Positions 34,744 through 62,084 of a stretch of 64,000 bases of DNA are shown here, piece by piece (position 1 is the first letter of the stretch; each line of letters begins with the position of its first letter). This stretch comes from Ostreococcus lucimarinus (taxonomy: Eukaryota): the NCBI GenBank assembly GCA_000092065.1, contig CP000600.1, one strand, 5' to 3'. The notes beneath the pieces were generated by a model, which saw only the letters and a program-made list of their open reading frames with translations, made no database searches and was not told the DNA's origin. The translations under genes and the position numbers were made by a program.

Positions 34744-36006
34744 ATGGCGAGCGATGAACGCGAACAGCAGGCGCTGCAAAAGCGCCTGCTGGAGTGCCTG
34801 AAGCGACCGGAGAATTTGACGTGCGCGGAGTGCGCGATGCGACTGCCGCGATGGGCGTCGACGTCGCTCGGAGTGTTCTTTTGCACCAACTGCAGCGGAT
34901 CGCATCGCGGACTCGGGGTGCACATATCCAAGGTGAAGTCGACGACGCTGGACAAGTGGACCGAGGCGCAGGTGGCGCACATGGAACGCGTCGGGAACGC
35001 CAAAGCGAACGCGTATTGGGAGGCGAACGTGCGCGCAGGGGTGAAACCAGGAGCGACGAGCGGTCGGGATGCGTGCGAGAGGTTCATTAGGGATAAGTAC
35101 GAGCGACAGTTGTACAAGGATACGACGCGGGACGGGCCGGAGGCGTCGATTCACGCGAGCGCCTCCGCGCCCGCGGAAGCGGCGGTGCCGGCCGCGGTGC
35201 CGGCCCAGCAGAGTGGTGGTATGTTTGATTTGATGTCGTTGCACGAACCCGCGCCGGTTCAAGCGAGTGAAGCGTCGACGACGTTCGGTGGCAGTCAATG
35301 GACGGATTTCAACGTCGCGCCGGCGCCGACCGCGCAAGTTCAAGCGGCGCCGGCGCCGGCGCCGAACGCGGGAGTGATGGACCAATGGAGCGATTTCACG
35401 ACGTCCACCGCTGTGCAGGCTCAAAATTCCGTCGCGGACGATGGCTGGGGGGATTTTACTGCGGCACCGCCAGCTGTCGCGGCGCCGGTTGCCGTCGAGC
35501 CCGCGCAAGCGCAAAAACCTGAAATGTCAAAAAATGACATCATGAACTTGTTCGACGCTCCTGCGGTACCTGCGGCGACAGCTCCGAGCGCATCGGCTCC
35601 GATTGGAACAAACATGGCGATGGGGGGCTTCGATCAGCTTCAAGCGGGGATGATGCCGCAAGGTGGGCAGGGGATGATGGGGGGCTACGGTACACAAGTG
35701 CCGCCGCAGCAGCAGTACGCGATGCAACCGATGCCGGGGATGCAGCAACAGCAATACATGGGAGGCGCTCAACAGTATGGCTATCCACCGCAGCACCATT
35801 ATCCGCAAATGGGCGTCGGCATGATGCCGCAAATGGGAGGAATGATGCCGCAAATGGGAGGAATGATGCCGCAAATGGGGGGCACGATGCCGCAAATGGG
35901 GGGCGCCTCGACGTACGGCGCTCAACCGTACATGCAGGCACAACCGCAGGCGCCGCAGAGCCCCCCGAAGCCTGACACGCAAAACATTCCGGAATTCAAG
36001 TGGTGA
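34744..36006 (+). CDS. ArfGAP-domain protein with Q/M/G-rich C-terminus
   Basis: CAECAMRLPRWASTSLGVFFCTNCSGSHRGLGVHISKVKSTTLDKW is the ArfGAP C4 zinc finger with its arginine finger. The C-terminal low-complexity region (MMPQMGG x4) is encoded by a 27-bp tandem repeat. Confidence 0.8.
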   Translation: MASDEREQQALQKRLLECLKRPENLTCAECAMRLPRWASTSLGVFFCTNCSGSHRGLGVHISKVKSTTLDKWTEAQVAHMERVGNAKANAYWEANVRAGVKPGATSGRDACERFIRDKYERQLYKDTTRDGPEASIHASASAPAEAAVPAAVPAQQSGGMFDLMSLHEPAPVQASEASTTFGGSQWTDFNVAPAPTAQVQAAPAPAPNAGVMDQWSDFTTSTAVQAQNSVADDGWGDFTAAPPAVAAPVAVEPAQAQKPEMSKNDIMNLFDAPAVPAATAPSASAPIGTNMAMGGFDQLQAGMMPQGGQGMMGGYGTQVPPQQQYAMQPMPGMQQQQYMGGAQQYGYPPQHHYPQMGVGMMPQMGGMMPQMGGMMPQMGGTMPQMGGASTYGAQPYMQAQPQAPQSPPKPDTQNIPEFKW

Positions 36007-36053
36007 ATGATTAGGCTTAAAAATAGCATTCTTCAATTCATTACACGGCGTTC

Positions 36054-36922
36054 TCATTCATCGTCTTCCCACTCGTCGTCGTCTTCCCATTCGTCGTCGT
36101 CGTCGTCTTCCTCTTCTGGAGTAGGGGTCGCCGGTAATCCGCGTTCAGCTTGCGCGACCCTTCTTCGGCGTTCTTCGATCTCTTTTTGCTTACGAGTTCG
36201 CTCCGCGAGCACGCGAGCTTCTTCGTCTTTGATCGCTCTCGCCTCGCGCGCCTCCACCTCGTGCTTGAGTTTAATCACCCCCACGATCCCACCCACGATG
36301 GCGAAGATAAGCCCCAGAGCTTTCTTCAACCCTCCCGCGGCGTCTTTCACGTTATGTTCCTTGAGCATGGCCACCAATTTCGAAGGCAACGCCCCGCTCA
36401 TCTCTTCCAACTTTTCTCCATTCTTGTACAACTGATACGTCGGAAGCGCCTTGACGTTACACTTCTCCGCCACCGCCGGAACGGCTTCGATATCCACCCT
36501 CACGAAGCGTATGCGTTTAAATTCCGCCGTTCTCGCGAGCGTCTGCATGTACGGCGCCATGGATTTACTCGAAGGGCTGTAGTTCTGTTCGTCGAACGCG
36601 CGCGTCGGGCGACCCCCGCGTCCTCGTCAGTCCTCGCGTCCTCGGTCCTCGGTCCTCGGTCCTCGGTCCTCGATCCTCGATCCTCGCCTCGTTTCCCGCG
36701 CGTCCTCGGTCTCGTCCTCGCGACGGTCTCTCGTCGTCGTCGTCCGCGCTTCGCTTCCCGCGGTCTCGACGCGCGCGTCGGACGCACCGAGACGAACTCC
36801 ACGAGCACGAGCTGATCTTTCCTTCGCAGCGCGCGATCGAACGCCGTCGCCGTCGCGAGCGTCTCCACGCGCGAGAACGCCTTCATCTTTCGCGCCCCGC
36901 CGGCGCGTCGTCGCGTCGACAT
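36054..36922 (-). CDS. Thioredoxin-like membrane protein with a degenerate SPSS active site; two exons (36922–36788 and 36584–36054) split by a ~203-nt GC-rich intron
   Basis: Exon 1 reads MSTRRRAGGARKMKAFSRVETLATATAFDRALRRKDQLVLVEFVS and ends at TCG|GTGCGT. Exon 2 starts after ...GAACAG| with NYSPSSKSMAPYMQTLARTAEFKRIRFVRVDIE...KALPTYQLYKNGEKLEE. The joined sequence is colinear with a thioredoxin fold, where W-CGPC-K is replaced by Y-SPSS-K. It continues into one TM helix and an acidic tail. The ORF track shows the two exons as separate ORFs. Confidence 0.55.
36621..36690. repeat. Heptamer tandem repeat (TCCTCGG/TCCTCGA)n, about 9 units, inside the intron of the thioredoxin-like gene
   Basis: Seen directly in the sequence: tcctcggtcctcggtcctcggtcctcggtcctcgatcctcgatcctcg. 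Confidence 0.85.
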
Positions 36923-37091
36923 CCCGCGTCGTCGTCGTCGTCGTCGTCGAGTCGCGCTCTGCGGGTCAGGTTTACGCGCGCGTCGTCGCGCGTCGCTCGG
37001 GACACCGCGACGCGACGCGCGCGCGACGAGCGACGCGCCGCGCGACGAGCGACGACGCGCCGGTCGAGCGTCGAGCTCGACGCGCGCCCGG

Positions 37092-40000
37092 ATGAGCGAC
37101 AGCGAGAGCGATTACAGCGACGACGACGCGCACATCGGCGGCGGCGATCGGGATGCGGAGGAAACGTACGACGGCGCGGGAGGCGAGGCGACGCTGAACG
37201 TGGACGTCGGATCGTCGCTCACGAGCGCGGATTGGGCGGACATCGATAACTCGGACCTCGTGGCCAAGGTGCGCGGGAGCGCGGGGTTTCGAATCATGCG
37301 AGAGATTCAGCCGTGGGACGGGGCGCTGGACGCGCCGCCGGATTTGATGAAACGACACGTGTTTGAATACTTTTACACGCAGCGCAAGGACAGTGACTTT
37401 TATAAAAAGTTGGCCAAGGATTGCTTCCCGAGCGAGTACGAAAGAGCGGGGGCGGATAAATCGGAGAAGAAGCGGTTGGCGAACCTCTGGGCGGGGGCGG
37501 TTTTGGACGAGTTGAAGGCGATGCGAGACGGGGCGAAGCACACCTTGCGATGGATCAACGCCATCAAGGAAGCGCAGGCGGGTGATTTGTTATTTTTAAA
37601 GCGTGAGGCTCTGACTCACGGGCCCGGGAGCGTGCAGGAGATTGCCAGTCAAATTGTTTGGGACAACGTGAGTAATCGCATCAAGGATCAAACCTTTGCG
37701 GCGATGCACGCGTGGACGAACAAATCGGGTGCTCAATCCGGTGGCGTCGCGCGCATGTACAAGCATCAGCACGAACTCATCGATCAACTGGACAAGCACT
37801 ATGCCGCCATCGGGAAAATGCAAGAGGCGAAGAAGCCGTTACCCAAGCCGTTGCACGTCATCTTATCGACGCCGACGGGGTCGGGCAAGACGTTCACCGC
37901 CATTCTCGTTCACCTGCGTCTTTTGAAGGTCAAGTACCCGGACGCTATCTTGCTCTACTCAGTGCCGACGAAACAAGTTTTGAAGCGCGTTGGACAAGAG
38001 TGTGAAGCGCACGCGGTGCCGTACTGGACGGCGGCGCGCGACAACACGGGCGATGGAACGCTTCACCAAGTGCGTCGTCCGTATTCCATTCGTGATAAGG
38101 CTCGAAACAAGAAAGCACTTCGTGCGGCGCGTGCTATCGGTGAAAAGGTCAGCGCTGGTTCCGGTACGATTCAACAACAGCTCGAATACGCCGCAGATGT
38201 GGGTTACAAGCTCAAGGATCACGGCGCTGGTAAACCGGATATCATCATCGCGGATCTCAATACCACGGCGGCGTTGCTCAAAGCCTGCAAGGAAGAAAGC
38301 TCCAGCTCGTTCTACCACGAGTCTAAGATTCTTTTGTACTTTGACGAGCCGAATATGGGTATTCACCTCGATCCGAATGTTTTGGGTGTGGTTTCGTCTA
38401 TCCAGGCCAACATGCCGCTCACCGCCGTACTTGCTTCGGCGACCCTAGGCGCGTGGGAAGGTTTGGAGCCTTGGTGGCGCGGCCCGACCGATGCGAACCA
38501 AATTACTATTAGTTTGGAGCCGTACGAGTTGCCAATGGCGAAGCTCGCCGTTTTCAACGAAGGCACGAGCGAGTTTTCTCCCATGAGTCCGCTCAACTTG
38601 ATTGAAAATTATGCCGAATACCAACGAGTGATGGAGGATTACCGTTTGCCCACGCTTCTGTTGCGTCACTTGACAGCTCGACATGGTAATGATTTATTGC
38701 AGATTCAACCGCCCGGTGGACCTTGGGATAAGGTGCAGGGTGACGTGAAATCGTTGCGTTTGGCAATCGAACCGACGTTTACGAGCCTGTCGCAAAAAGA
38801 ATTTGAACGACTGCAAGGTCGATGGAAGATGGGCGAGGACGCTCCTACCAAGGTCGATGGCATCCGTGGTGCACTCTCAAAAGAGGGCGTCACTATGGTC
38901 GGTTGCTTGGATCCGCGCAAGGTGGCGTTCGAGCTCGCCGGCTTTGCTGACCAGGAGGCTTGGATCCAAGACGTTCATAAATTGAACAACAAGCTCAAGG
39001 AAGCGGAAAGAATGGTAAAAGAGAACGCCAAGGCTGAAAAACGCAAAAAGAAGGATGACGAAGACGAGGCTAAGGATGGTGGCGACGAAGGCGGCGTCGG
39101 AGTCGTGACTCTTCGACCGATGTTAAAGATTAGTCTCGCCGAAGCTCTCGAGGCTGACATCAACACCTTGGTCATGCTTTCTAAGGGTATCGCTTATGCG
39201 TGCGGGTCAGGCACAGAGCCTATGGTGAAACGTCTTTATAACCAAGCGTTGCTCACCGTTCCCGATTCTCTTCGAGGACGATCTCCGCCGCTCAACGTGC
39301 TGGTTGTCGACTACTCGTCCATTTACGGAACGGATTGTCCCGCGGTTGATACTTTGTTGTTGCAAGAGGATTTGGGTCGACTCTTAGCTTGGGAAGATCT
39401 TCAGCAGTTCCTTGGTCGTCTTCGACGCGATGGAACAGCCGTTTTCTACTCCAAGAAAACTCTTCGCCGGGCCGCTCTCGGCGCCGCGGTCGAAGAGGAA
39501 GAGACGACGGCGCTTATTGAATTCCAAAAGCTTGTTGAAAACTCTGTGCTGGATCTCGAAAAGGCTCAAAAACGCGACACCGACAGCGTCACCGCCCTCG
39601 TGACCAAGCTCTCTGCGTCTTCTGGTCGCAGTGCGGGAGAAGTCGCTTCGTACGTGTTGGCGTCTGTTATATCGTTTGCGCTATCTGCTCCGTCTCATCT
39701 CGATGGTGCGGGCGTGTACCCGGCGACCATCCCGGAGAGCGACAAAGAGCTCTTAGCCGCGATCACAAAGCGCGTGGAGGGTTACTCGGACGCATTGGAA
39801 AATGTGTTGAAAAAGATGTCGGAGCAAGTTCGTGCCGTGAGCGCGATCGAAGCCCTCTCGCTCTCTGCGAACCCGTTCGCCAGCCGTACCGGCGGCGCTC
39901 GCGTGCTCGGCATTGCTGCGCAAGTGTTGAAAATGCTGTACGATGCTGATATCCTCTCCGAAGAAGCACTCTTTGCTTGGGCTAATGCGAAGCGCAAAGA

Positions 40001-40109
40001 ACTTCTCGCTGAGTCAGACGGTGACGCTCGCTTCTTTGGCAAAGCAAAGCCATTCATTCAGTGGTTATCCGAAGCAAGCGATGAAGACAGCGATGAAGAA
40101 GAAGAATAG
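37092..40109 (+). CDS. SF2 helicase-like protein fused to a C-terminal W2 (eIF4G/eIF5/eIF2B-epsilon type) domain
   Basis: P-loop LSTPTGSGKTFTAI, motif II LLYFDEPNMG (DExx degenerated to DEPN), motif III LASATLG, motif VI-like FLGRLRRDG. The C-terminus ...ILSEEALFAWANAKRKELLAE...FIQWLSEASDEDSDEEEE has W2/AA-box character. ATG at 37092. Confidence 0.55.
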   Translation: MSDSESDYSDDDAHIGGGDRDAEETYDGAGGEATLNVDVGSSLTSADWADIDNSDLVAKVRGSAGFRIMREIQPWDGALDAPPDLMKRHVFEYFYTQRKDSDFYKKLAKDCFPSEYERAGADKSEKKRLANLWAGAVLDELKAMRDGAKHTLRWINAIKEAQAGDLLFLKREALTHGPGSVQEIASQIVWDNVSNRIKDQTFAAMHAWTNKSGAQSGGVARMYKHQHELIDQLDKHYAAIGKMQEAKKPLPKPLHVILSTPTGSGKTFTAILVHLRLLKVKYPDAILLYSVPTKQVLKRVGQECEAHAVPYWTAARDNTGDGTLHQVRRPYSIRDKARNKKALRAARAIGEKVSAGSGTIQQQLEYAADVGYKLKDHGAGKPDIIIADLNTTAALLKACKEESSSSFYHESKILLYFDEPNMGIHLDPNVLGVVSSIQANMPLTAVLASATLGAWEGLEPWWRGPTDANQITISLEPYELPMAKLAVFNEGTSEFSPMSPLNLIENYAEYQRVMEDYRLPTLLLRHLTARHGNDLLQIQPPGGPWDKVQGDVKSLRLAIEPTFTSLSQKEFERLQGRWKMGEDAPTKVDGIRGALSKEGVTMVGCLDPRKVAFELAGFADQEAWIQDVHKLNNKLKEAERMVKENAKAEKRKKKDDEDEAKDGGDEGGVGVVTLRPMLKISLAEALEADINTLVMLSKGIAYACGSGTEPMVKRLYNQALLTVPDSLRGRSPPLNVLVVDYSSIYGTDCPAVDTLLLQEDLGRLLAWEDLQQFLGRLRRDGTAVFYSKKTLRRAALGAAVEEEETTALIEFQKLVENSVLDLEKAQKRDTDSVTALVTKLSASSGRSAGEVASYVLASVISFALSAPSHLDGAGVYPATIPESDKELLAAITKRVEGYSDALENVLKKMSEQVRAVSAIEALSLSANPFASRTGGARVLGIAAQVLKMLYDADILSEEALFAWANAKRKELLAESDGDARFFGKAKPFIQWLSEASDEDSDEEEE

Positions 40110-43671: not shown

Positions 43672-43874
43672 CGCGCGCGGTCGCGCGGTGCGGGCGCGCG
43701 TCGTCGCGAGGCGTTATCCGCGCGAAAAAGCGACGTTCGCGCGGCGCGTCTGGTGGCGTGCGTCGATCGGGCGGTCGCGAACATCGCGCATCGCGCGTAT
43801 TGCGCGCGCGTATTGTGCGCCGTGCGCACGCGATGGGTGCGCGCGATGCGCGTGCATAAATAAATAAACGACCC

Positions 43875-43914
43875 GGTCGGTCGGTCGGTCGGTCGGTCGG
43901 TCGGTCGGTCGGTC
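43875..43914. repeat. (GGTC)10 microsatellite
   Basis: Seen directly in the sequence, in the isoamylase/lumazine-synthase divergent intergenic region. Confidence 0.85.
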
Positions 43915-44361
43915 GCCCGACCGCGCGGCAAAAGGAAACGGGGGGGTTCTTCGCTCATCAGTCTGACCGCGCGCCGTCCTCTGTGACTTGGAATGTGACG
44001 ACACAGGGCCTTCATCAAGCTAGCGCGCCGCGCGGCGTCCGAGACGCCGCGTCGTCGCGAAGCGGATTGTCGAGCTCGAGCGCGCGGCCTTCTCGGTCGT
44101 CGTCTGAGGTAAGAAGCTTGTTTTCATTTGGAGAAAACTGATTAGGTGTACGAAATGTAGAATACGATCCTGTATTAGTACAATCGTGATGTGCAGACGC
44201 GAGACCCCCCTGGACGTCGCGCGCGCGCGTCGCGGCGCGCGTTGTTACGGGTCCGCCGACGCGCGACGTTCGGGCGGGCGCGGAACGCGCCGAAAACGCG
44301 TTCTAGGGTTGTGCGCCGCGACACTCGTCGTCGCGCGTCGCCGCGCCGCGATTCGCGATCG

Positions 44362-51857: not shown

Positions 51858-52394
51858 GTCGACCTCCTTGCCGAACCACTTGGCCACCATCGGCGTCAGC
51901 GCCACCGTCGGCCCGAACCTAATCGGCGAACTCGCCTTATGCGCCGCGTACGCCAGCGCGAACGTCCCGAACTGTTCGCTCGTCGCGTTCACGCTGATCC
52001 CAATCTTATCCAACAGGCTCGCCACGTCCACCCCGCCCGCGACGAGAAAATAAAACACCGTGATCGAAATCAAGCTCAGCGAAATCGACGTCGCCAGATA
52101 CGCCGACCCGTACCGCTTGAGCAATTTCTTCGCCATGTCCATGCGCGACGTCCCGAGCTCTTCCGCGCCCTCGCTCGCGCCCTCGCCCGTCTCCGTCCCT
52201 CCCGCCGCGCCGCCGCCGTTCTTGAACACCTTCCACAGCCCCGCCTCGAGTCCCCACTTTCGCGTCGTCGCGTCGATCTCTCGCTCCTTCGCGTTCTTCG
52301 CCTTCGCCCGCGTCGTCGTCGTCGTTCGCGCCGTCGCGCGTCGCCGTCGCGTCGCGCGTCGCGCGCGCTTCGCCGTTCGCGTCGCGTCGTCCAT
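51810..52394 (-). CDS. DUF1279/FAM210-family mitochondrial membrane protein
   Basis: C-terminal LLKRYGSAYLATSISLSLISITVFYFLVAGGVDVASLLDKIGISVN matches the FAM210/DUF1279 core. Start at an in-frame ATG (MDDATRTAKR...). The rest of the 649-aa track ORF is antisense to MurE and was discarded. Confidence 0.6.
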
Positions 52395-52397
52395 CGC

Positions 52398-52436
<39 letters not shown>

Positions 52437-52632
52437 GATTCGCGTCGTCGCGATTCGCGTCGTCGCGCGCGTCGTCGCGCGTCGCGATCGCGCGCCGTTC
52501 GCGACGGGCGCGATTCTCGCGCGGTGCATCGCGCGCGCGGCGTCGCGCGCGCGGCGCAATCGCGACGCCGCGGATCGCGACGACGCGCATCGCGACGACG
52601 CGATTGCGCCGGACGATGCATAAAACAATACG

Positions 52633-52677
52633 CGCACTGTTTGCGCACACGTATGTAGACACCGAATGTCCGAATAC
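52633..52677. promoter_or_regulatory. Second copy of the CGCACTGTTTGCGCACACG + CCGAATGTCCGAAT motif pair (DUF1279/MurE divergent promoter)
   Basis: Exact 19-mer and 14-mer shared with 30123–30165. Confidence 0.35.
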
Positions 52678-52802
52678 ACACCTTTCATATAATAACCACA
52701 CAAACACCGATCGAGCAAACCCAGCCCGACGCCGCGTCGGATTCGCCAACCGCCGGCGGCGGCGCGCGATCGCACACGACGCCGCGCCGCGCGGACGCCG
52801 CG

Positions 52803-54941
52803 ATGTCGCGCGTCTCGAGCGCGACGCGCCGATGCGTCGCGCGACGCCCGTCCGCGGCGACGCTCGGACGCGCGACGGGACGACCGCGCGCGACGACGCG
52901 ACGACGGACGACGCGCGGTTGCCCTCGCGAGGACGCGCGAGGACGCGCGACGCGCGCGCGAGCGACGACGCGGGACGCGCGCGCGAGCGACGACGACGAG
53001 GGATGCGACGACGACGCGCGCGACGACGTCGGGACGGGCGCGGCGCGCGCGCACGCGGAGATCGGGCGCGAGGAGGATGAGGAGGGCGACGCGGAGGCGC
53101 TGCTGCGAGAGATTTTCGAAGACGCGGGCGTCGACGCGAGGTGGATCGCGCTGGAGGACGACGAGGACGTGGAGATATCGGGAATAGCGAACGATGTGAA
53201 CGCGCTGTTGAGCGGGGATCTGTTCGTGTGCGGGTCGGCGCGAGAGGGAGGGGCGATGGAGGACGCGGCGAGGGAAGCCGTGGCGGCGGGCGCGGTGGCG
53301 GTGGTTTCGGAACGCGCGATCGAGGGGTTGGCGGATGTCCCGATCGCCGTGGTCGAGGACGTGGACGAGGCGTTGGCGGATATCGCGAGAGTGTTTTACG
53401 GCGATCCGTCCAAGGCGCTGACGGCGATCGCGCTGACGGGGAGCGTGGGGAAGACGACGACGTCGTACCTCGTGAAAGCCGTCTTCGAGGAGGCGGATAT
53501 TCGCATGGGGCTCGTCGGGTCGAATGGGAATTACGTCGGCGATGAACTCAAGCTCACGGCGCAGGGTGGGGTGTGGGAGAGCGATGAAGAAGACACCACG
53601 CGCGGTCGCACGAGCACGGCGCCGGGGTGGTTGGCACCGTATCGAGGCAAGTACGAATTCGAAGAGCGCGGTTCGGACGCGCTTCAGTTTCAGCAACTCA
53701 CCGCGGGCATCGCCGATAACGGCGCGCAGGCGGCGGTGATGGAGGTGAGCGCGGAACAAGTGCGGCGAAAGGCGACGCGTGGGATGAACTTTGACATCGT
53801 CGCACTGACGTCACCGCTCGAAGGCCCGGACGCGATGAGCGATCGGCGTAAGGATTATCGAGGGTTGGACGCTGAGTACTCGTCGCACGTCGCCGAGGTC
53901 TTCAAAGCGCTCGAAGACGCCGAGACGCAGCGAGCGGTGATCAACGTGGATGCGATTGATGACAACGATAAGACCCCTTATCACGAGTTATGCAAAGAAC
54001 ACGCCAAGGGCGTTCCTCAGTTGACGTATTCTGTGGATCCCGAAAACCCGAACGGGGCGGACGTTTACCCCGCGCGCGTCGACTATTCCCTCTTCGAGAC
54101 GGCGGTGTCGCTGAGCACGCCCGCTGGCAACGTCGAGGTCGTCGTCGGTCTCGTGGGTGAGCATATGGTCAACGCGATCTGTTGCGCTACCGCGATAGGT
54201 CTCGCGGCGGAAATTCCCCTCGACGTCATCGCCGCCGGATTGGAGGCGACGGATTCGATTCCAGGGCGCATGGAGCTCGTGGACGCGGGTCAAGATTTTT
54301 CGGTGTTGGTGGATAGCGCGAACACTCCCGAAGCGATCAGAAGTGTGATTGATAGCGTCAAAGCGACGAATTGTAGGCGAGTCATCACCGTCATCGGTTG
54401 TGAGGGCGAAATGGCGGAGAGCGAACGAGGGCAGCGCGCCGTCATCGGTAAGACGGTGCACGACCATTCGGACGTCGTCTTCGTCACGAACGATTCCCCC
54501 AAGGCTGAGGACCCGTACAAAATCCTTGAAGACATCTGCGCTGGATTTAGAGACGAAATTTATTCCAAGCCCGGCATGGAGGACGAGGCGCTGTTCCCAT
54601 TCTTGAAGGACATGTACGAGGTGCACGAAAACGCCCAATACGAGTGCATGCGGCTTCAAAACTTAGTTCGTAGATACGTCATGGTGGACCGGTACCACGC
54701 CATTCGCGCCGCCATCGGTATGGCGGAGCGCGATGACGTGGTGCTCATCATAGGTCGCGGCGCGAAGGATTACTTTGTCGTCGGTCGCGAGAAGCATTGG
54801 TTCGACGACGTCGTCGAGGCTCGAGACGCGCTTCAGAAAATCGGCGCCATTCAGGACAGCGGCGTCGACACCCACAACCTTCCGTGGATGTCCCTCGCCG
54901 CTCGAGCCACCAATCCGGGCGCGGGTAACTTACTCGGATAA
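52803..54941 (+). CDS. murE: MurE-like Mur ligase (UDP-MurNAc-tripeptide synthetase homolog), organelle-targeted
   Basis: Mur ligase N, central and C domains: GDLFVCGSAREGG...GAVAVVSE...VPIAVVEDVDEALADIARVFYGDPSKALTAIALTGSVGKTTTSYL.... The MurE-specific DNPR motif region is conserved as VFVTNDSPKAEDPYKILEDICAG (E. coli: [22 protein letters not shown]). An R/T/A-rich ~90-aa leader precedes it. ATG at 52803. Confidence 0.8.
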   Translation: MSRVSSATRRCVARRPSAATLGRATGRPRATTRRRTTRGCPREDARGRATRARATTRDARASDDDEGCDDDARDDVGTGAARAHAEIGREEDEEGDAEALLREIFEDAGVDARWIALEDDEDVEISGIANDVNALLSGDLFVCGSAREGGAMEDAAREAVAAGAVAVVSERAIEGLADVPIAVVEDVDEALADIARVFYGDPSKALTAIALTGSVGKTTTSYLVKAVFEEADIRMGLVGSNGNYVGDELKLTAQGGVWESDEEDTTRGRTSTAPGWLAPYRGKYEFEERGSDALQFQQLTAGIADNGAQAAVMEVSAEQVRRKATRGMNFDIVALTSPLEGPDAMSDRRKDYRGLDAEYSSHVAEVFKALEDAETQRAVINVDAIDDNDKTPYHELCKEHAKGVPQLTYSVDPENPNGADVYPARVDYSLFETAVSLSTPAGNVEVVVGLVGEHMVNAICCATAIGLAAEIPLDVIAAGLEATDSIPGRMELVDAGQDFSVLVDSANTPEAIRSVIDSVKATNCRRVITVIGCEGEMAESERGQRAVIGKTVHDHSDVVFVTNDSPKAEDPYKILEDICAGFRDEIYSKPGMEDEALFPFLKDMYEVHENAQYECMRLQNLVRRYVMVDRYHAIRAAIGMAERDDVVLIIGRGAKDYFVVGREKHWFDDVVEARDALQKIGAIQDSGVDTHNLPWMSLAARATNPGAGNLLG

Positions 54942-54943
54942 CC

Positions 54944-55015
54944 GCGCCGTCGCGCCGTCGCGCCGTCGCGCCGTCGCGCCGTCGCGCCGTCGCGCCGTCG
55001 CGCGCGCGCGCGCGC
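54944..55015. repeat. (CGCCGTCG)~7 octamer tandem repeat followed by a (CG)n run, immediately 3' of the MurE stop
   Basis: Seen directly in the sequence. Confidence 0.85.
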
Positions 55016-61038: not shown

Positions 61039-61173
61039 CCCGCGTCGTCGATTTAAATCTCCAATCGCGCGCGCCTCCTCGTCGCTCTCCTCGTCGCTCG
61101 TCGCCGTCGCGCCGTCGCGCGCGTCGTCGCTCGAGTCCGAGCTCGCGCCGTCGCGCGCGCGCGCGTCGTCGCG

Positions 61174-61204
<31 letters not shown>

Positions 61205-61262
61205 GCGTCGCGATCTCTCGTCGCGCACACGTCGACGCGCCGCCCGGCGCCGCGCGCGCGCC

Positions 61263-62084
61263 ATGGCGCCGCGCGCGCGGCGCATCGACGCGCCGCGCGT
61301 CGCCCGCGCGGACGCGCGCGCGACGTCGACGCTCGGCGACGCGTGCGCGTCGTGCGACGCGTGCGCGTGCGACGACTGCGGCGGATTCATCGTCGACGGT
61401 GGACCGGCGTACGGGCCGAAGCGCGCGCTCGGGGCGCACTTCAGATCGGGCGCGCGCGAGTGGTTCGACACGAGCGGGATGTGCGGGTGCGAGCGACACG
61501 CGCGCGAGGCGTGCGAGACGTGCGAGACGACGCTGCGGCTCGACGGGTTCGCGGGGGGCGGGGATCACGCCGAGTATAACGAGTTCGTGCGACAGTATTT
61601 GCGCGCGGTGCGTCTGCACTGCGACGCGAAGCGTGAGAGTCGCGAGGGCGCGCGCGACGCGTACCATCCGAGCGCGCGACGCGGGACGGCGGTGGAGTGG
61701 GCGAGGGACGGCGCTCTTTTGGGCGCGCTCGTCGTGGCGGCGATTCACTTGAGCCTCAAGCGCGCGAAATCGAAGCGCGGTTCCGACGCGGAGTCGTCGA
61801 GGGTGCTGCAGATGTACGTCGCTTTACTCTGGCGTCGGCCGTTCCCTGAGACGGCGGATCTGATGGACGTCATCGCGAGCGCGGTCCGGAGCGCCGACGC
61901 CGACGCCCGAGCGAAGATTTTTGACGCCCTCGACAAGCCGCGATCGAACGACTTGATGGACTTTGAGGACGCCATTGAGACGCTGATGAGAAGTATGCAG
62001 GCCGGCAGAGTTCTGGGCGTCCGCGACGACTTCATAGCCGCCTTGACCGCGTTGAAGGCCGCGTTGAGCAGAAATCTGCGGTAG
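61263..62084 (+). CDS. Hypothetical protein
   Basis: ATG-initiated 273-aa ORF. Cys-rich N-terminal segment (CASCDACACDDCGG...CGCERHAREACETCE). No family recognised. Confidence 0.3.
   Translation: MAPRARRIDAPRVARADARATSTLGDACASCDACACDDCGGFIVDGGPAYGPKRALGAHFRSGAREWFDTSGMCGCERHAREACETCETTLRLDGFAGGGDHAEYNEFVRQYLRAVRLHCDAKRESREGARDAYHPSARRGTAVEWARDGALLGALVVAAIHLSLKRAKSKRGSDAESSRVLQMYVALLWRRPFPETADLMDVIASAVRSADADARAKIFDALDKPRSNDLMDFEDAIETLMRSMQAGRVLGVRDDFIAALTALKAALSRNLR

What the first reader, a model, noticed from the sequence alone, without database searches (positions are those of the whole stretch)
36054..36922. Thioredoxin-fold protein with SPSS instead of CGPC, TM anchor and acidic tail; the intron carries a heptamer microsatellite
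Joining the two ORFs gives a 221-aa protein colinear with thioredoxin, but with the W-C-G-P-C-K active site replaced by Y-S-P-S-S-K. It is followed by one TM helix and a D/E/W-rich tail (EWEDDDEWEDDE). This points to a redox-inactive thioredoxin-like scaffold. The splice junction falls exactly at the active-site position, and the intron contains (CCTCGGT)n, which could be polymorphic.
Basis: seen in the sequence. Interest (0 to 1): 0.55.

Follow-up and report, generated by a model that had tools for sequence, protein, structure and literature searches.

The report
Cysteine-free membrane-anchored thioredoxin-like protein
This is a real two-exon gene of the tiny marine green alga Ostreococcus lucimarinus that encodes a membrane-anchored thioredoxin look-alike with both catalytic cysteines replaced by serine; it belongs to a little-studied green-algal family and is a moderately interesting, not extraordinary, pseudo-enzyme.

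Summary
On the minus strand, exon 1 (36922-36788) and exon 2 (36584-36054) flank a 203-nt GT-AG intron. They encode a 221-aa protein with a thioredoxin fold (Pfam PF00085, E=1.5e-18), YSPSSK in place of WCGPCK, one transmembrane helix, a charged helix and an acidic, tryptophan-bearing tail.

The splice junction is established without RNA. O. tauri and a second lineage have the same gene without an intron, and their DNA reads EFVS-NYSPSSKS across exactly this point. Five other loci carry an intron at the identical phase-0 site. None of 78 frame-preserving alternative junctions produces a cysteine.

The thioredoxin domain is under strong purifying selection (dN/dS 0.04-0.16). The family spans the Chlorophyta. 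Tetraselmis-like sequences keep WC(A/V)PC, several lineages keep only the second cysteine, and Mamiellales and Pyramimonas have none.

The heptamer array (36630-36686, 8 copies) is real. One environmental contig that is 99.4% identical to the window carries one unit fewer, so the array varies in length.

The most likely function is a non-catalytic binding module tethered to a membrane. This is inferred, not shown. The O. tauri orthologue is already in databases as "Thioredoxin-like fold", with no functional study found.

The parts
36788..36922 (-). Exon 1, codons 1-45. It encodes a conserved basic N-terminus (MSTRRRAGGARKM) and the first strand-helix-strand of the thioredoxin fold, ending ...LVLVEFVS.
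   Evidence: The N-terminal peptide is conserved in orthologues, and the O. tauri annotated protein P0055 starts at the equivalent Met.
36585..36787 (-). Spliceosomal intron, 203 nt, phase 0: GTGCGT donor, ACTGAC branch-like motif, CAG acceptor.
   Evidence: The gap in DNA alignment A1 against the intronless O. tauri locus L003 equals exactly this interval. Introns sit at the same site in L001, L008, L010, L012 and L009.
36626..36631 (-). ACTGAC, the putative branch point, 42 nt upstream of the acceptor.
   Evidence: It is conserved in all five Ostreococcus-like introns while the rest of the intron diverges. The Micromonas-like L009 has GCTAAC instead.
36630..36686 (.). Heptamer microsatellite: (GAGGAYC)n on the gene strand, GTCCTCG on the + strand, 8 copies.
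   Evidence: Tandem Repeats Finder. Unique in the window. Environmental allele L014 has one unit fewer, and L013 has the same length with a different unit order. The 96%-identical relative L001 lacks the array.
36054..36584 (-). Exon 2, codons 46-221 plus the TGA stop (36056-36054).
36564..36581 (-). Y47-S48-P49-S50-S51-K52, the degenerate counterpart of the WCGPCK active site.
   Evidence: HMMER alignment to 1ERW and other thioredoxins. S48, S51 and K52 are invariant in 14 family members. Serine is kept although the codon class switches between AGY and TCN.
36441..36443 (-). P93, which aligns with the thioredoxin cis-proline in the substrate-binding loop (KALPTYQ).
   Evidence: Invariant across both family alignments and aligned to MPTFQ of human thioredoxin.
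36273..36320 (-). Transmembrane helix A134-I149 (ALGLIFAIVGGIVGVI), with Gly/Ala spaced as small-xxx-small motifs.
   Evidence: Hydropathy and shuffle test. AlphaFold2 places it in a continuous helix 128-192. A hydrophobic segment is present at this position in all orthologues.
36135..36272 (-). Charged K/R/E-rich helix, residues 150-195.
   Evidence: AlphaFold2 helix. It has 14 K+R and 11 D+E and evolves fast.
36057..36134 (-). Acidic tail with tryptophans, residues 196-221, net charge -18.
   Evidence: Acidic tails with aromatic residues recur in Ostreococcus-like, Bathycoccus-like (inferred), Tetraselmis, Pedinophyceae, Myrmecia and Pyramimonas relatives.

Best explanation
This is a functional two-exon gene of Ostreococcus lucimarinus CCE9901. 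It encodes a single-pass membrane protein whose N-terminal domain is a cytosolic-type (thioredoxin 1 / h-type) thioredoxin fold with both catalytic cysteines replaced by serine.

Shown here: the gene model, the fold, the loss of the cysteines, strong purifying selection on the domain, and membership of a Chlorophyta-wide family. In that family the active site runs from WC(A/V)PC (Tetraselmis-like), through forms keeping only the second cysteine, to no cysteine (Mamiellales, Pyramimonas).

Inferred: the domain no longer transfers electrons. It acts instead as a non-catalytic binding module. The residues that stay invariant are S48, S51, K52, the cis-proline loop KALPTYQ and the EEMSGAxP loop. 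In classical thioredoxins the equivalent segments form the substrate-binding groove. The protein would therefore hold a partner without forming a mixed disulfide.

There is no signal peptide, and about 130 residues precede the only hydrophobic helix. The thioredoxin-like domain therefore most likely faces the cytosol, with the charged helix and acidic tail on the far side of the membrane. Glycine spacing in the helix hints at helix-helix packing. Which membrane it sits in, and what the partner is, are unknown.

The intron is an old Mamiellales intron that two Ostreococcus lineages have lost. Its heptamer array is an ordinary, recently expanded, length-variable microsatellite with no sign of function.
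For: - **Gene model.** Searches give the exons and the spliced product. Intronless orthologous DNA reads across the junction. Introns occupy the same phase-0 site in six loci, with conserved GTGCGT / ACTGAC / CAG signals. An MMETSP transcript of a Micromonas-like orthologue (inferred lineage) has the contiguous sequence VEFVAGWSTSSKSM.
- **Species.** The neighbouring 1005-aa ORF is identical to XP_001422576.1 of O. lucimarinus CCE9901.
- **Fold.** Pfam PF00085 matches at 67 bits. PDB sequence matches reach E about 1e-15 to thioredoxin 1 and h-type thioredoxins. The AlphaFold2 model shows a thioredoxin fold plus a long helix. The top Foldseek match is 1ERW, target-normalised TM-score 0.85.
- **No cysteine rescue.** None of 78 alternative junctions yields a cysteine. 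The protein has a single cysteine, C87, which is alanine in P0012, P0014 and P0024.
- **Selection.** dN/dS in the thioredoxin domain is 0.04-0.16 at dS 0.8-1.5, against about 0.5-0.6 or saturation in the tail. Serines 48, 50 and 51 persist through switches between the AGY and TCN codon classes.
- **Family breadth and active-site decay.**
- **No signal peptide.** The highest 10-residue hydropathy in the first ~40 residues is 1.06.
Against: - No experiment or RNA data from O. lucimarinus itself was available.
- The binding-module mechanism rests on analogy with the thioredoxin substrate groove, not on any observed partner.
- Topology is ambiguous by the positive-inside rule: flank charges are 0 and +1.
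- The invariant serines could have a role of their own, such as phosphorylation or ligand contact, which a 'dead scaffold' reading does not capture.
- The acidic tail is missing in the Micromonas-like clade, so its contribution to a common mechanism is unclear.
- The AlphaFold2 model is only moderately confident (mean pLDDT 73, pTM 0.48).
Confidence: 0.6

Rival explanations
1. The protein is a decoy or regulator of the genuine thioredoxin system. It keeps the thioredoxin surface and so competes at a membrane for thioredoxin reductase or thioredoxin targets, without turning them over. This is a special case of non-catalytic binding.
For: It is most similar to cytosolic thioredoxin 1 / h-type thioredoxins, and the groove-forming loops are invariant. 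From general knowledge, Cys-to-Ser thioredoxin mutants are used as dominant-negative or trapping-deficient controls.
Against: Nothing here indicates contact with a reductase. Family members with intact WC(A/V)PC exist, which fits an ancestral enzyme better than an ancestral inhibitor.
Confidence: 0.15
2. The working part is the C-terminal region. The charged helix and polyacidic tail would bind cations such as Ca2+ or a basic partner on the far side of the membrane, and the thioredoxin-like domain would be only a stable cytosolic handle.
For: Net charge of -18 over 26 residues. Acidic tails with aromatic residues recur across distant Chlorophyta. From general knowledge, calsequestrin combines cysteine-free thioredoxin folds with an acidic Ca2+-binding tail.
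Against: The tail evolves fast (dN/dS 0.5-0.6 or saturated) while the thioredoxin domain is the strongly constrained part. The Micromonas-like clade has no acidic tail.
Confidence: 0.1
3. The protein is still redox-active by an unconventional route, for example through the single Cys87 (which aligns with human thioredoxin Cys69) or through glutathionylation.
For: One cysteine remains, and it aligns with a regulatory cysteine of human thioredoxin (alignment).
Against: C87 is alanine in several orthologues (P0012, P0014, P0024). There is no second cysteine and no in-frame TGA.
Confidence: 0.07
4. It is not a real gene: two chance ORFs, or a decaying pseudogene of a thioredoxin.
For: The exact 221-aa, 209-aa, 168-aa and 140-aa products are absent from the 15-billion-protein collection, so no such model seems to have been deposited for this species.
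Against: dN/dS is far below 1. Orthologues exist across the Mamiellales and beyond. MMETSP transcripts exist for related members. Synteny with the ArfGAP and W2-domain genes is conserved.
Confidence: 0.01

Closest known systems
Ostreococcus tauri XP_022841361.1 / UniProt A0A096PBR7, 'Thioredoxin-like fold' (222 aa)
   Same: It is the orthologue. It has the same architecture, the same NYSPSSKSM motif and the same neighbouring ArfGAP gene, with about 66% identity over the whole protein.
   Different: The O. tauri gene has no intron. It carries only an automatic name, and no functional study was found.
Cytosolic thioredoxin 1 / h-type thioredoxin (human TXN; Chlamydomonas Trx h1), including the engineered C32S/C35S mutant 1ERW
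   Same: It is colinear over about 105 residues at 30-36% identity. It has the same fold, cis-proline loop and Gly-Ala loop.
   Different: Nature has made the double Cys-to-Ser change here. The protein also has a basic N-terminal extension, a transmembrane helix, a charged helix and an acidic tail.
TMX family (thioredoxin-related transmembrane proteins 1-5). Their features are taken from general knowledge.
   Same: A thioredoxin-like domain is followed by one transmembrane helix and a tail. TMX2 (SNDC) and TMX5 (CRFS) have degenerate motifs, and TMX4 has an acidic tail.
   Different: There is no signal peptide here, so the domain is probably not lumenal. No cysteine remains at all. The 60 best PDB sequence matches are classical thioredoxins, the Grx3 thioredoxin domain and ERdj5, with no chain named as a TMX.
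N-terminal thioredoxin-like domain of Grx3/PICOT/TXNL2 (PDB 2DIY, 2WZ9)
   Same: It is among the best PDB matches (E about 1e-12 to 4e-13). From general knowledge it is also a thioredoxin domain lacking the first cysteine and used for protein interaction. Several chlorophyte relatives of this family keep only the second cysteine (WSAPC, WSQPC, WNxxC).
   Different: No glutaredoxin domain follows; Pfam finds only PF00085. This family is membrane-anchored.
Other cysteine-free thioredoxin folds (PDI b/b' domains, ERp29, calsequestrin, Dim1/TXNL4A, phosducin-like proteins). These are cited from general knowledge.
   Same: The principle is the same: a thioredoxin fold kept as a binding or structural module after the loss of redox chemistry.
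   Different: There is no specific sequence relationship. The only trace is a weak Phosducin hit at E=0.035, below the Pfam cut-off. The architecture and taxonomic range differ.

Membership tests
Thioredoxin fold / Pfam PF00085 | Sequence match above the curated cut-off | tested here: met
   67.1 bits against a cut-off of 23.5, residues 23-120 on profile positions 5-102 of 103.
Thioredoxin fold / Pfam PF00085 | Beta-alpha-beta-alpha-beta-alpha-beta-beta-alpha topology with a cis-proline loop | tested here: met
   AlphaFold2 secondary structure E19-22, H25-32, E38-44, H55-61, E70-76, H81-86, E94-99, E102-108, H112-123. Foldseek target-normalised TM-score is 0.85 to 1ERW. P93 is invariant.
Catalytic thioredoxin (thiol-disulfide oxidoreductase) | CxxC (WCGPC) active-site dithiol | tested here: not met
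   The motif is YSPSSK. No cysteine is reachable by any of 78 alternative junctions. Orthologues read SPSS, STSS, SSSS or SQGS.
Catalytic thioredoxin (thiol-disulfide oxidoreductase) | Disulfide reductase activity; reduction by thioredoxin reductase | not testable with these tools
   This needs a biochemical assay.
TMX (thioredoxin-related transmembrane proteins) | N-terminal signal peptide placing the thioredoxin domain in the ER lumen | tested here: not met
   The N-terminus MSTRRRAGGARKMKAFSRVETL is basic. The highest 10-residue hydropathy in the first ~40 residues is 1.06.
TMX (thioredoxin-related transmembrane proteins) | Thioredoxin domain followed by a single transmembrane helix and a tail | tested here: met
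   Transmembrane helix A134-I149 followed by a 72-residue tail.
TMX (thioredoxin-related transmembrane proteins) | At least one cysteine in the CxxC-derived motif | tested here: not met
   SPSS.
TMX (thioredoxin-related transmembrane proteins) | Closer in sequence to TMX domains than to cytosolic thioredoxins | tested here: inconclusive
   The 60 best PDB matches are thioredoxin 1 / h-type / mitochondrial thioredoxins, Grx3 and ERdj5, with no chain named TMX. No direct pairwise comparison with TMX sequences was run.
Grx3/PICOT | Thioredoxin-like domain followed by monothiol glutaredoxin domain(s) | tested here: not met
   Pfam finds only PF00085. The C-terminal half is a transmembrane helix plus a charged region.
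Tail-anchored membrane proteins | Single transmembrane helix within about 30-40 residues of the C-terminus | tested here: not met
   72 residues follow the helix.
Selenoprotein (Ostreococcus has many, from general knowledge) | In-frame TGA at the redox position | tested here: not met
   Codons 48-51 are AGC CCT TCG AGT. The only TGA in frame is the terminal stop.
U2-type spliceosomal intron | GT donor, AG acceptor, branch-like CTRAY motif, and exact colinearity with intronless orthologues | tested here: met
   GTGCGT ... ACTGAC (42 nt before the acceptor) ... CAG. The alignment gap against L003 equals the intron. Six loci carry an intron at the same site and two lack it.
U2-type spliceosomal intron | Spliced transcript observed in this species | not testable with these tools
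   No O. lucimarinus transcript was retrievable. The only transcript evidence comes from MMETSP orthologues of other species.
Microsatellite | Head-to-tail short units that vary in length among individuals | tested here: met
   8 copies of a 7-nt unit. L014 is 99.4% identical over 2.4 kb and has one unit fewer.

The most novel reading that the evidence does not exclude
This is an uncharacterised Chlorophyta-wide family of membrane-tethered, cytosol-facing thioredoxin paralogues. It records the stepwise conversion of an enzyme into a pseudo-enzyme: WC(A/V)PC in Tetraselmis-like sequences, only the second cysteine in Trebouxiophyceae, Pedinophyceae and Cymbomonas, and none in Mamiellales and Pyramimonas. 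The thioredoxin groove stays under strong selection even in one of the smallest free-living eukaryotic genomes. That would imply an important thiol-independent membrane function, such as an adaptor or holdase for an as yet unknown client, that has not been described for thioredoxins in algae.
Probability: 0.4. Interest if true: 0.5.

Novelty: new variant of a known kind. Interest (0 to 1): 0.33.

Why it matters
Cysteine-free thioredoxin folds are a familiar theme, so the principle is not new. What this locus adds is fourfold.

- **A corrected gene model.** None of the four exact products I tried for this locus (the 221-aa and 209-aa spliced forms and the two single-ORF products) is in a 15-billion-protein collection.
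- **A family with a traceable history.** It is a green-algal family with a distinctive architecture: a basic N-terminus, a thioredoxin 1 / h-type domain, a transmembrane helix, a charged helix and an acidic tail with aromatic residues. The loss of the catalytic cysteines can be followed step by step across lineages. That makes it a tidy natural system for asking what a thioredoxin surface does once redox chemistry is gone.
- **A clean case of intron loss.** The intron occupies one conserved site in some close relatives and is absent in others.
- **A usable strain marker.** The intronic heptamer array varies in length in wild populations.

O. tauri is genetically tractable, so the function is testable.

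Tried and rejected
- **AlphaFold-database fold search.** The library was not available, so I found no structure-level relatives with UniProt names beyond the PDB.
- **Second word-indexed homologue search.** I ran it with an alignment of distant members (A3). It returned only 6 proteins, all Tetraselmis-like, Cymbomonas-like or already known. It did not show whether Chlamydomonas or land plants have members.
- **Three literature searches** and one paper check found nothing on this family or on the intron position.
- **Rfam scan** of 35900-37200 found no RNA family, so there is no known intron-hosted RNA such as a snoRNA.
- **Selenocysteine** is rejected, because there is no in-frame TGA.
- **Alternative splice sites restoring a cysteine** are rejected.
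- **Tail-anchored protein** is rejected, because the tail is too long.
- **Twin-arginine or transit-peptide reading of the RRR N-terminus** is rejected. No hydrophobic region follows, the thioredoxin fold starts by residue ~19, and the peptide is conserved in sequence, which targeting peptides usually are not.
- **Atg8-interacting motif in the tail** is rejected, because there is no [W/F/Y]xx[L/I/V] pattern.
- **Triple serine codon-class switch tied to intron loss.** This first looked special. Class switches also occur at five other conserved serines in this gene, so it only shows that serine is selectively kept.

Full report
**What is in the sequence**

The region lies in a GC-rich (about 60%), very compact stretch. 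The neighbouring 1005-aa ORF at 37092-40109 is identical to XP_001422576.1 of Ostreococcus lucimarinus CCE9901. The window therefore comes from that picoalga.

On the minus strand an ORF opens at ATG 36922 and a second ORF runs to the TGA stop at 36056-36054. Joining 36922-36788 to 36584-36054 removes 203 nt (GTGCGT...ACTGAC...AACAG). The product is a 221-aa protein reading ...LVLVEFVS|NYSPSSKSMAPYM....

**Is the splice real?**

No transcript of this species could be retrieved, but the comparative evidence is strong.

- The O. tauri orthologue (cluster of P0003, member XP_022841361.1 "Thioredoxin-like fold") and a second lineage (P0004) are encoded by uninterrupted genomic ORFs. Both sit next to the same ArfGAP gene.
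- In the DNA alignment, the gap in O. tauri coincides exactly with window 36787-36585.
- Four other Ostreococcus-like loci (L001, L008, L010, L012) and one Micromonas-like locus (L009) carry an intron at the identical phase-0 position. Their lengths are 165, 168, 132, 256 and 233 nt. "Micromonas-like" and "Bathycoccus-like" are my inferred lineage labels.
- The Ostreococcus-like introns share only GTGCGT, (G)ACTGAC 35-60 nt before the end, and CAG. L009 has GTGAGT, GCTAAC and CAG. Conserved splice signals in otherwise unrelated intron sequence are what a real intron should show.
- An MMETSP transcript (P0010) of a Micromonas-like species has the contiguous VEFVAGWSTSSKSM.
- I enumerated every GT/GC-AG pair that keeps the reading frame into exon 2. 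There are 78. None introduces a cysteine, and only 36788/36584 reproduces the orthologue sequence.

The intron is therefore ancestral to Ostreococcus plus Micromonas and has been lost in at least two Ostreococcus lineages. The junction lies one codon before Y47, the Trp-equivalent. It is next to the active-site motif rather than exactly inside it.

**What the protein is**

- Pfam Thioredoxin matches at E=1.5e-18, 67 bits against a cut-off of 23.5.
- The best solved-structure matches are cytosolic thioredoxins. The top match is 1ERW, the engineered human C32S/C35S mutant, whose WSGPSK aligns with YSPSSK.
- An AlphaFold2 model built on 14 family sequences (mean pLDDT 73) shows the canonical thioredoxin topology for residues 19-123, then one long helix 128-192.
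- Foldseek again ranks 1ERW first, with a target-normalised TM-score of 0.85. Human, yeast and Chlamydomonas h-type thioredoxins and the thioredoxin domain of Grx3/TXNL2 are among the matches that follow.
- The hydrophobic core A134-I149 has a 19-residue hydropathy of 2.05, reached by 5 of 2000 shuffles.
- The protein has a single cysteine (C87). The last 26 residues have net charge -18. The first ~40 residues hold no signal-peptide-like hydrophobic stretch.

**Is it under selection?**

I built spliced coding sequences for eight loci and codon-aligned them.

| Region | dN/dS | Note |
|---|---|---|
| Thioredoxin domain (codons 14-123) | 0.04-0.16 | dS 0.8-1.5 |
| Tail (codons 151-221) | about 0.5-0.6 | or saturated |

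In a 14-sequence alignment the invariant residues include S48, S51, K52, M54, P56 and Y57. They also include the loop K90-A91-P93-T94-Y95-Q96 and E106-M107-G109-A110-P112. From established knowledge of thioredoxin-substrate complexes, these segments correspond to the active-site turn, the cis-proline loop and the Gly-Ala loop that form the substrate groove.

Serines 48, 50 and 51 are encoded by AGC/TCG/AGY in the intron-bearing lineages and by TCC/AGC/TCS in the intronless ones. Such codon-class switches are common at conserved serines in this gene. They show that serine itself is maintained by selection.

**How wide is the family?**

An exhaustive profile search of 1.84 billion representative proteins found full-length matches with the same architecture outside the Mamiellales. 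The active-site motifs are, and the species names.

| Source | Protein(s) | Active-site motif |
|---|---|---|
| Tetraselmis striata and two related sequences | P0114, P0240, P0242 | WC(A/V)PC |
| Myrmecia bisecta | P0117 | WNSVC |
| Pedinophyceae sp. YPF-701 | P0131 | NVTPC |
| Cymbomonas tetramitiformis | P0111 | SASC |
| Unnamed metagenome proteins | P0140, P0227, P0097, P0212 | WSQPC, WSAPC, WNPGC, WNTTC |
| Pyramimonas sp. (P0135); unnamed relatives (P0119, P0125) | P0135, P0119, P0125 | no cysteine |

The family is therefore Chlorophyta-wide, and the catalytic dithiol has decayed stepwise. All Mamiellales members lack both cysteines. The basic N-terminus, the hydrophobic helix and, in most lineages, an acidic tail with aromatic residues recur. 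The Micromonas-like clade instead has IEEWEAEEEE right after the helix and a basic end.

**How it most likely works**

Shown: it is a selected, expressed-in-relatives, cysteine-free thioredoxin fold on a single-pass membrane protein.

Inferred:
- It cannot carry out thiol-disulfide exchange.
- Its conserved groove binds a partner non-covalently.
- With no signal peptide and about 130 folded residues before the only hydrophobic helix, the domain probably stays in the cytosol. The charged helix and acidic tail would lie across the membrane.
- With 72 residues after the helix it is not a classical tail-anchored protein.
- The flank charges (0 and +1) do not settle the orientation.

Rivals are a decoy for the thioredoxin system, a cation-binding tail as the main functional part, and residual redox activity through C87. 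The last is unlikely, because C87 is alanine in some orthologues.

**Comparison with known families**

It is a member of the thioredoxin-fold superfamily but fails the defining CxxC feature of catalytic thioredoxins.

It resembles TMX proteins in domain order. It lacks their signal peptide and any cysteine in the motif, and its nearest sequence relatives are cytosolic thioredoxins.

Like the thioredoxin domain of Grx3/PICOT it has lost the nucleophilic cysteine, but no glutaredoxin domain follows.

I found no publication on the family. The O. tauri orthologue carries only an automatic name.

The exact 221-aa, 209-aa, 168-aa and 140-aa products of this locus are absent from the 15-billion-protein collection. 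O. lucimarinus therefore seems to lack a correct model, although a differently drawn model cannot be excluded.

**The repeat**

Tandem Repeats Finder gives 8.0 copies of a 7-nt unit at 36630-36686 with 96% matches. It is unique in the window.

A 96%-identical relative (L001) has an octamer-like (CGAGGACG)n array instead. L008 has (GCGT)n.

A pattern scan of metagenome contigs found two contigs that are 99.4-99.5% identical to the window over 2.4-4 kb. L014 has one heptamer fewer. L013 has the same length but a different order of the C and T unit variants.

Nothing suggests a function. GC-rich tandem repeats are frequent in non-coding parts of this window, and Rfam finds no RNA in the region.

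**Verdict**

This is a new variant of a known kind: a cysteine-free, membrane-anchored thioredoxin paralogue family limited, as far as seen, to green algae. Interest is modest. It is a neat pseudo-enzyme series, a clean intron presence/absence case and a gene-model correction, but nothing that overturns expectations.

Noticed in passing
window 36884-36886 (codon M13) and 36922: Met13 is invariant in all 14 aligned family members. The Pyramimonas and Cymbomonas proteins start at the equivalent Met, without the basic MxxRRRxGxARK extension. This hints at an alternative start codon, giving isoforms with and without the basic N-terminus.
   Followed up: partly
window 36567-36578, compared with L003 and L005: All three serines of the SPSS motif use the opposite serine codon class (AGY versus TCN) in the two intronless lineages. 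Class switches also occur at five other conserved serines of the gene, so this mainly shows selection for serine. The coincidence with intron loss remains unexplained.
   Followed up: partly
window 34744-36006 (+), repeat at 35803-35904: The convergent neighbour is an ArfGAP gene (420 aa). Its C-terminus holds a 21-nt tandem repeat coding (GGMMPQM)n, 4.7 copies at 90% matches. Its stop lies only 47 nt from the stop of the thioredoxin-like gene.
   Followed up: no
window 36923-37091: A 169-nt divergent intergenic region lies between this gene and the 1005-aa W2-domain gene (37092-40109, XP_001422576.1). It is filled with (GAC)n and 19-23-nt GC-rich tandem repeats (36927-36949, 37008-37074). It is presumably a shared bidirectional promoter.
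   Followed up: no
L001 3001-3795 (protein P0001); P0035-P0038; P0005; P0006: Prokaryote-style gene callers on metagenome contigs produce artefactual proteins here. One is a 264-aa read-through of a 165-nt stop-free intron. Others are exon-1 read-throughs, including one NCBI entry from GCA_977009625.1. Others are exon-2 ORFs that begin inside the intron and are named 'thioredoxin 1'.
   Followed up: yes
window 36054-36922: The exact spliced products (221 aa and 209 aa) and the single-ORF products (168 aa and 140 aa) are not in the 15-billion-protein collection, although the neighbouring gene's product is. The O. lucimarinus annotation probably lacks a correct model for this gene.
   Followed up: partly
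window 54943-55003 and 43874-43915: Two other perfect microsatellites occur in the window: (CGCGCCGT) x 7.6 and (CGGT) x 10.5, both 100% matches. Many degenerate GC-rich tandem arrays are also present, for example at 52309-53052 and 61065-61349.
   Followed up: no
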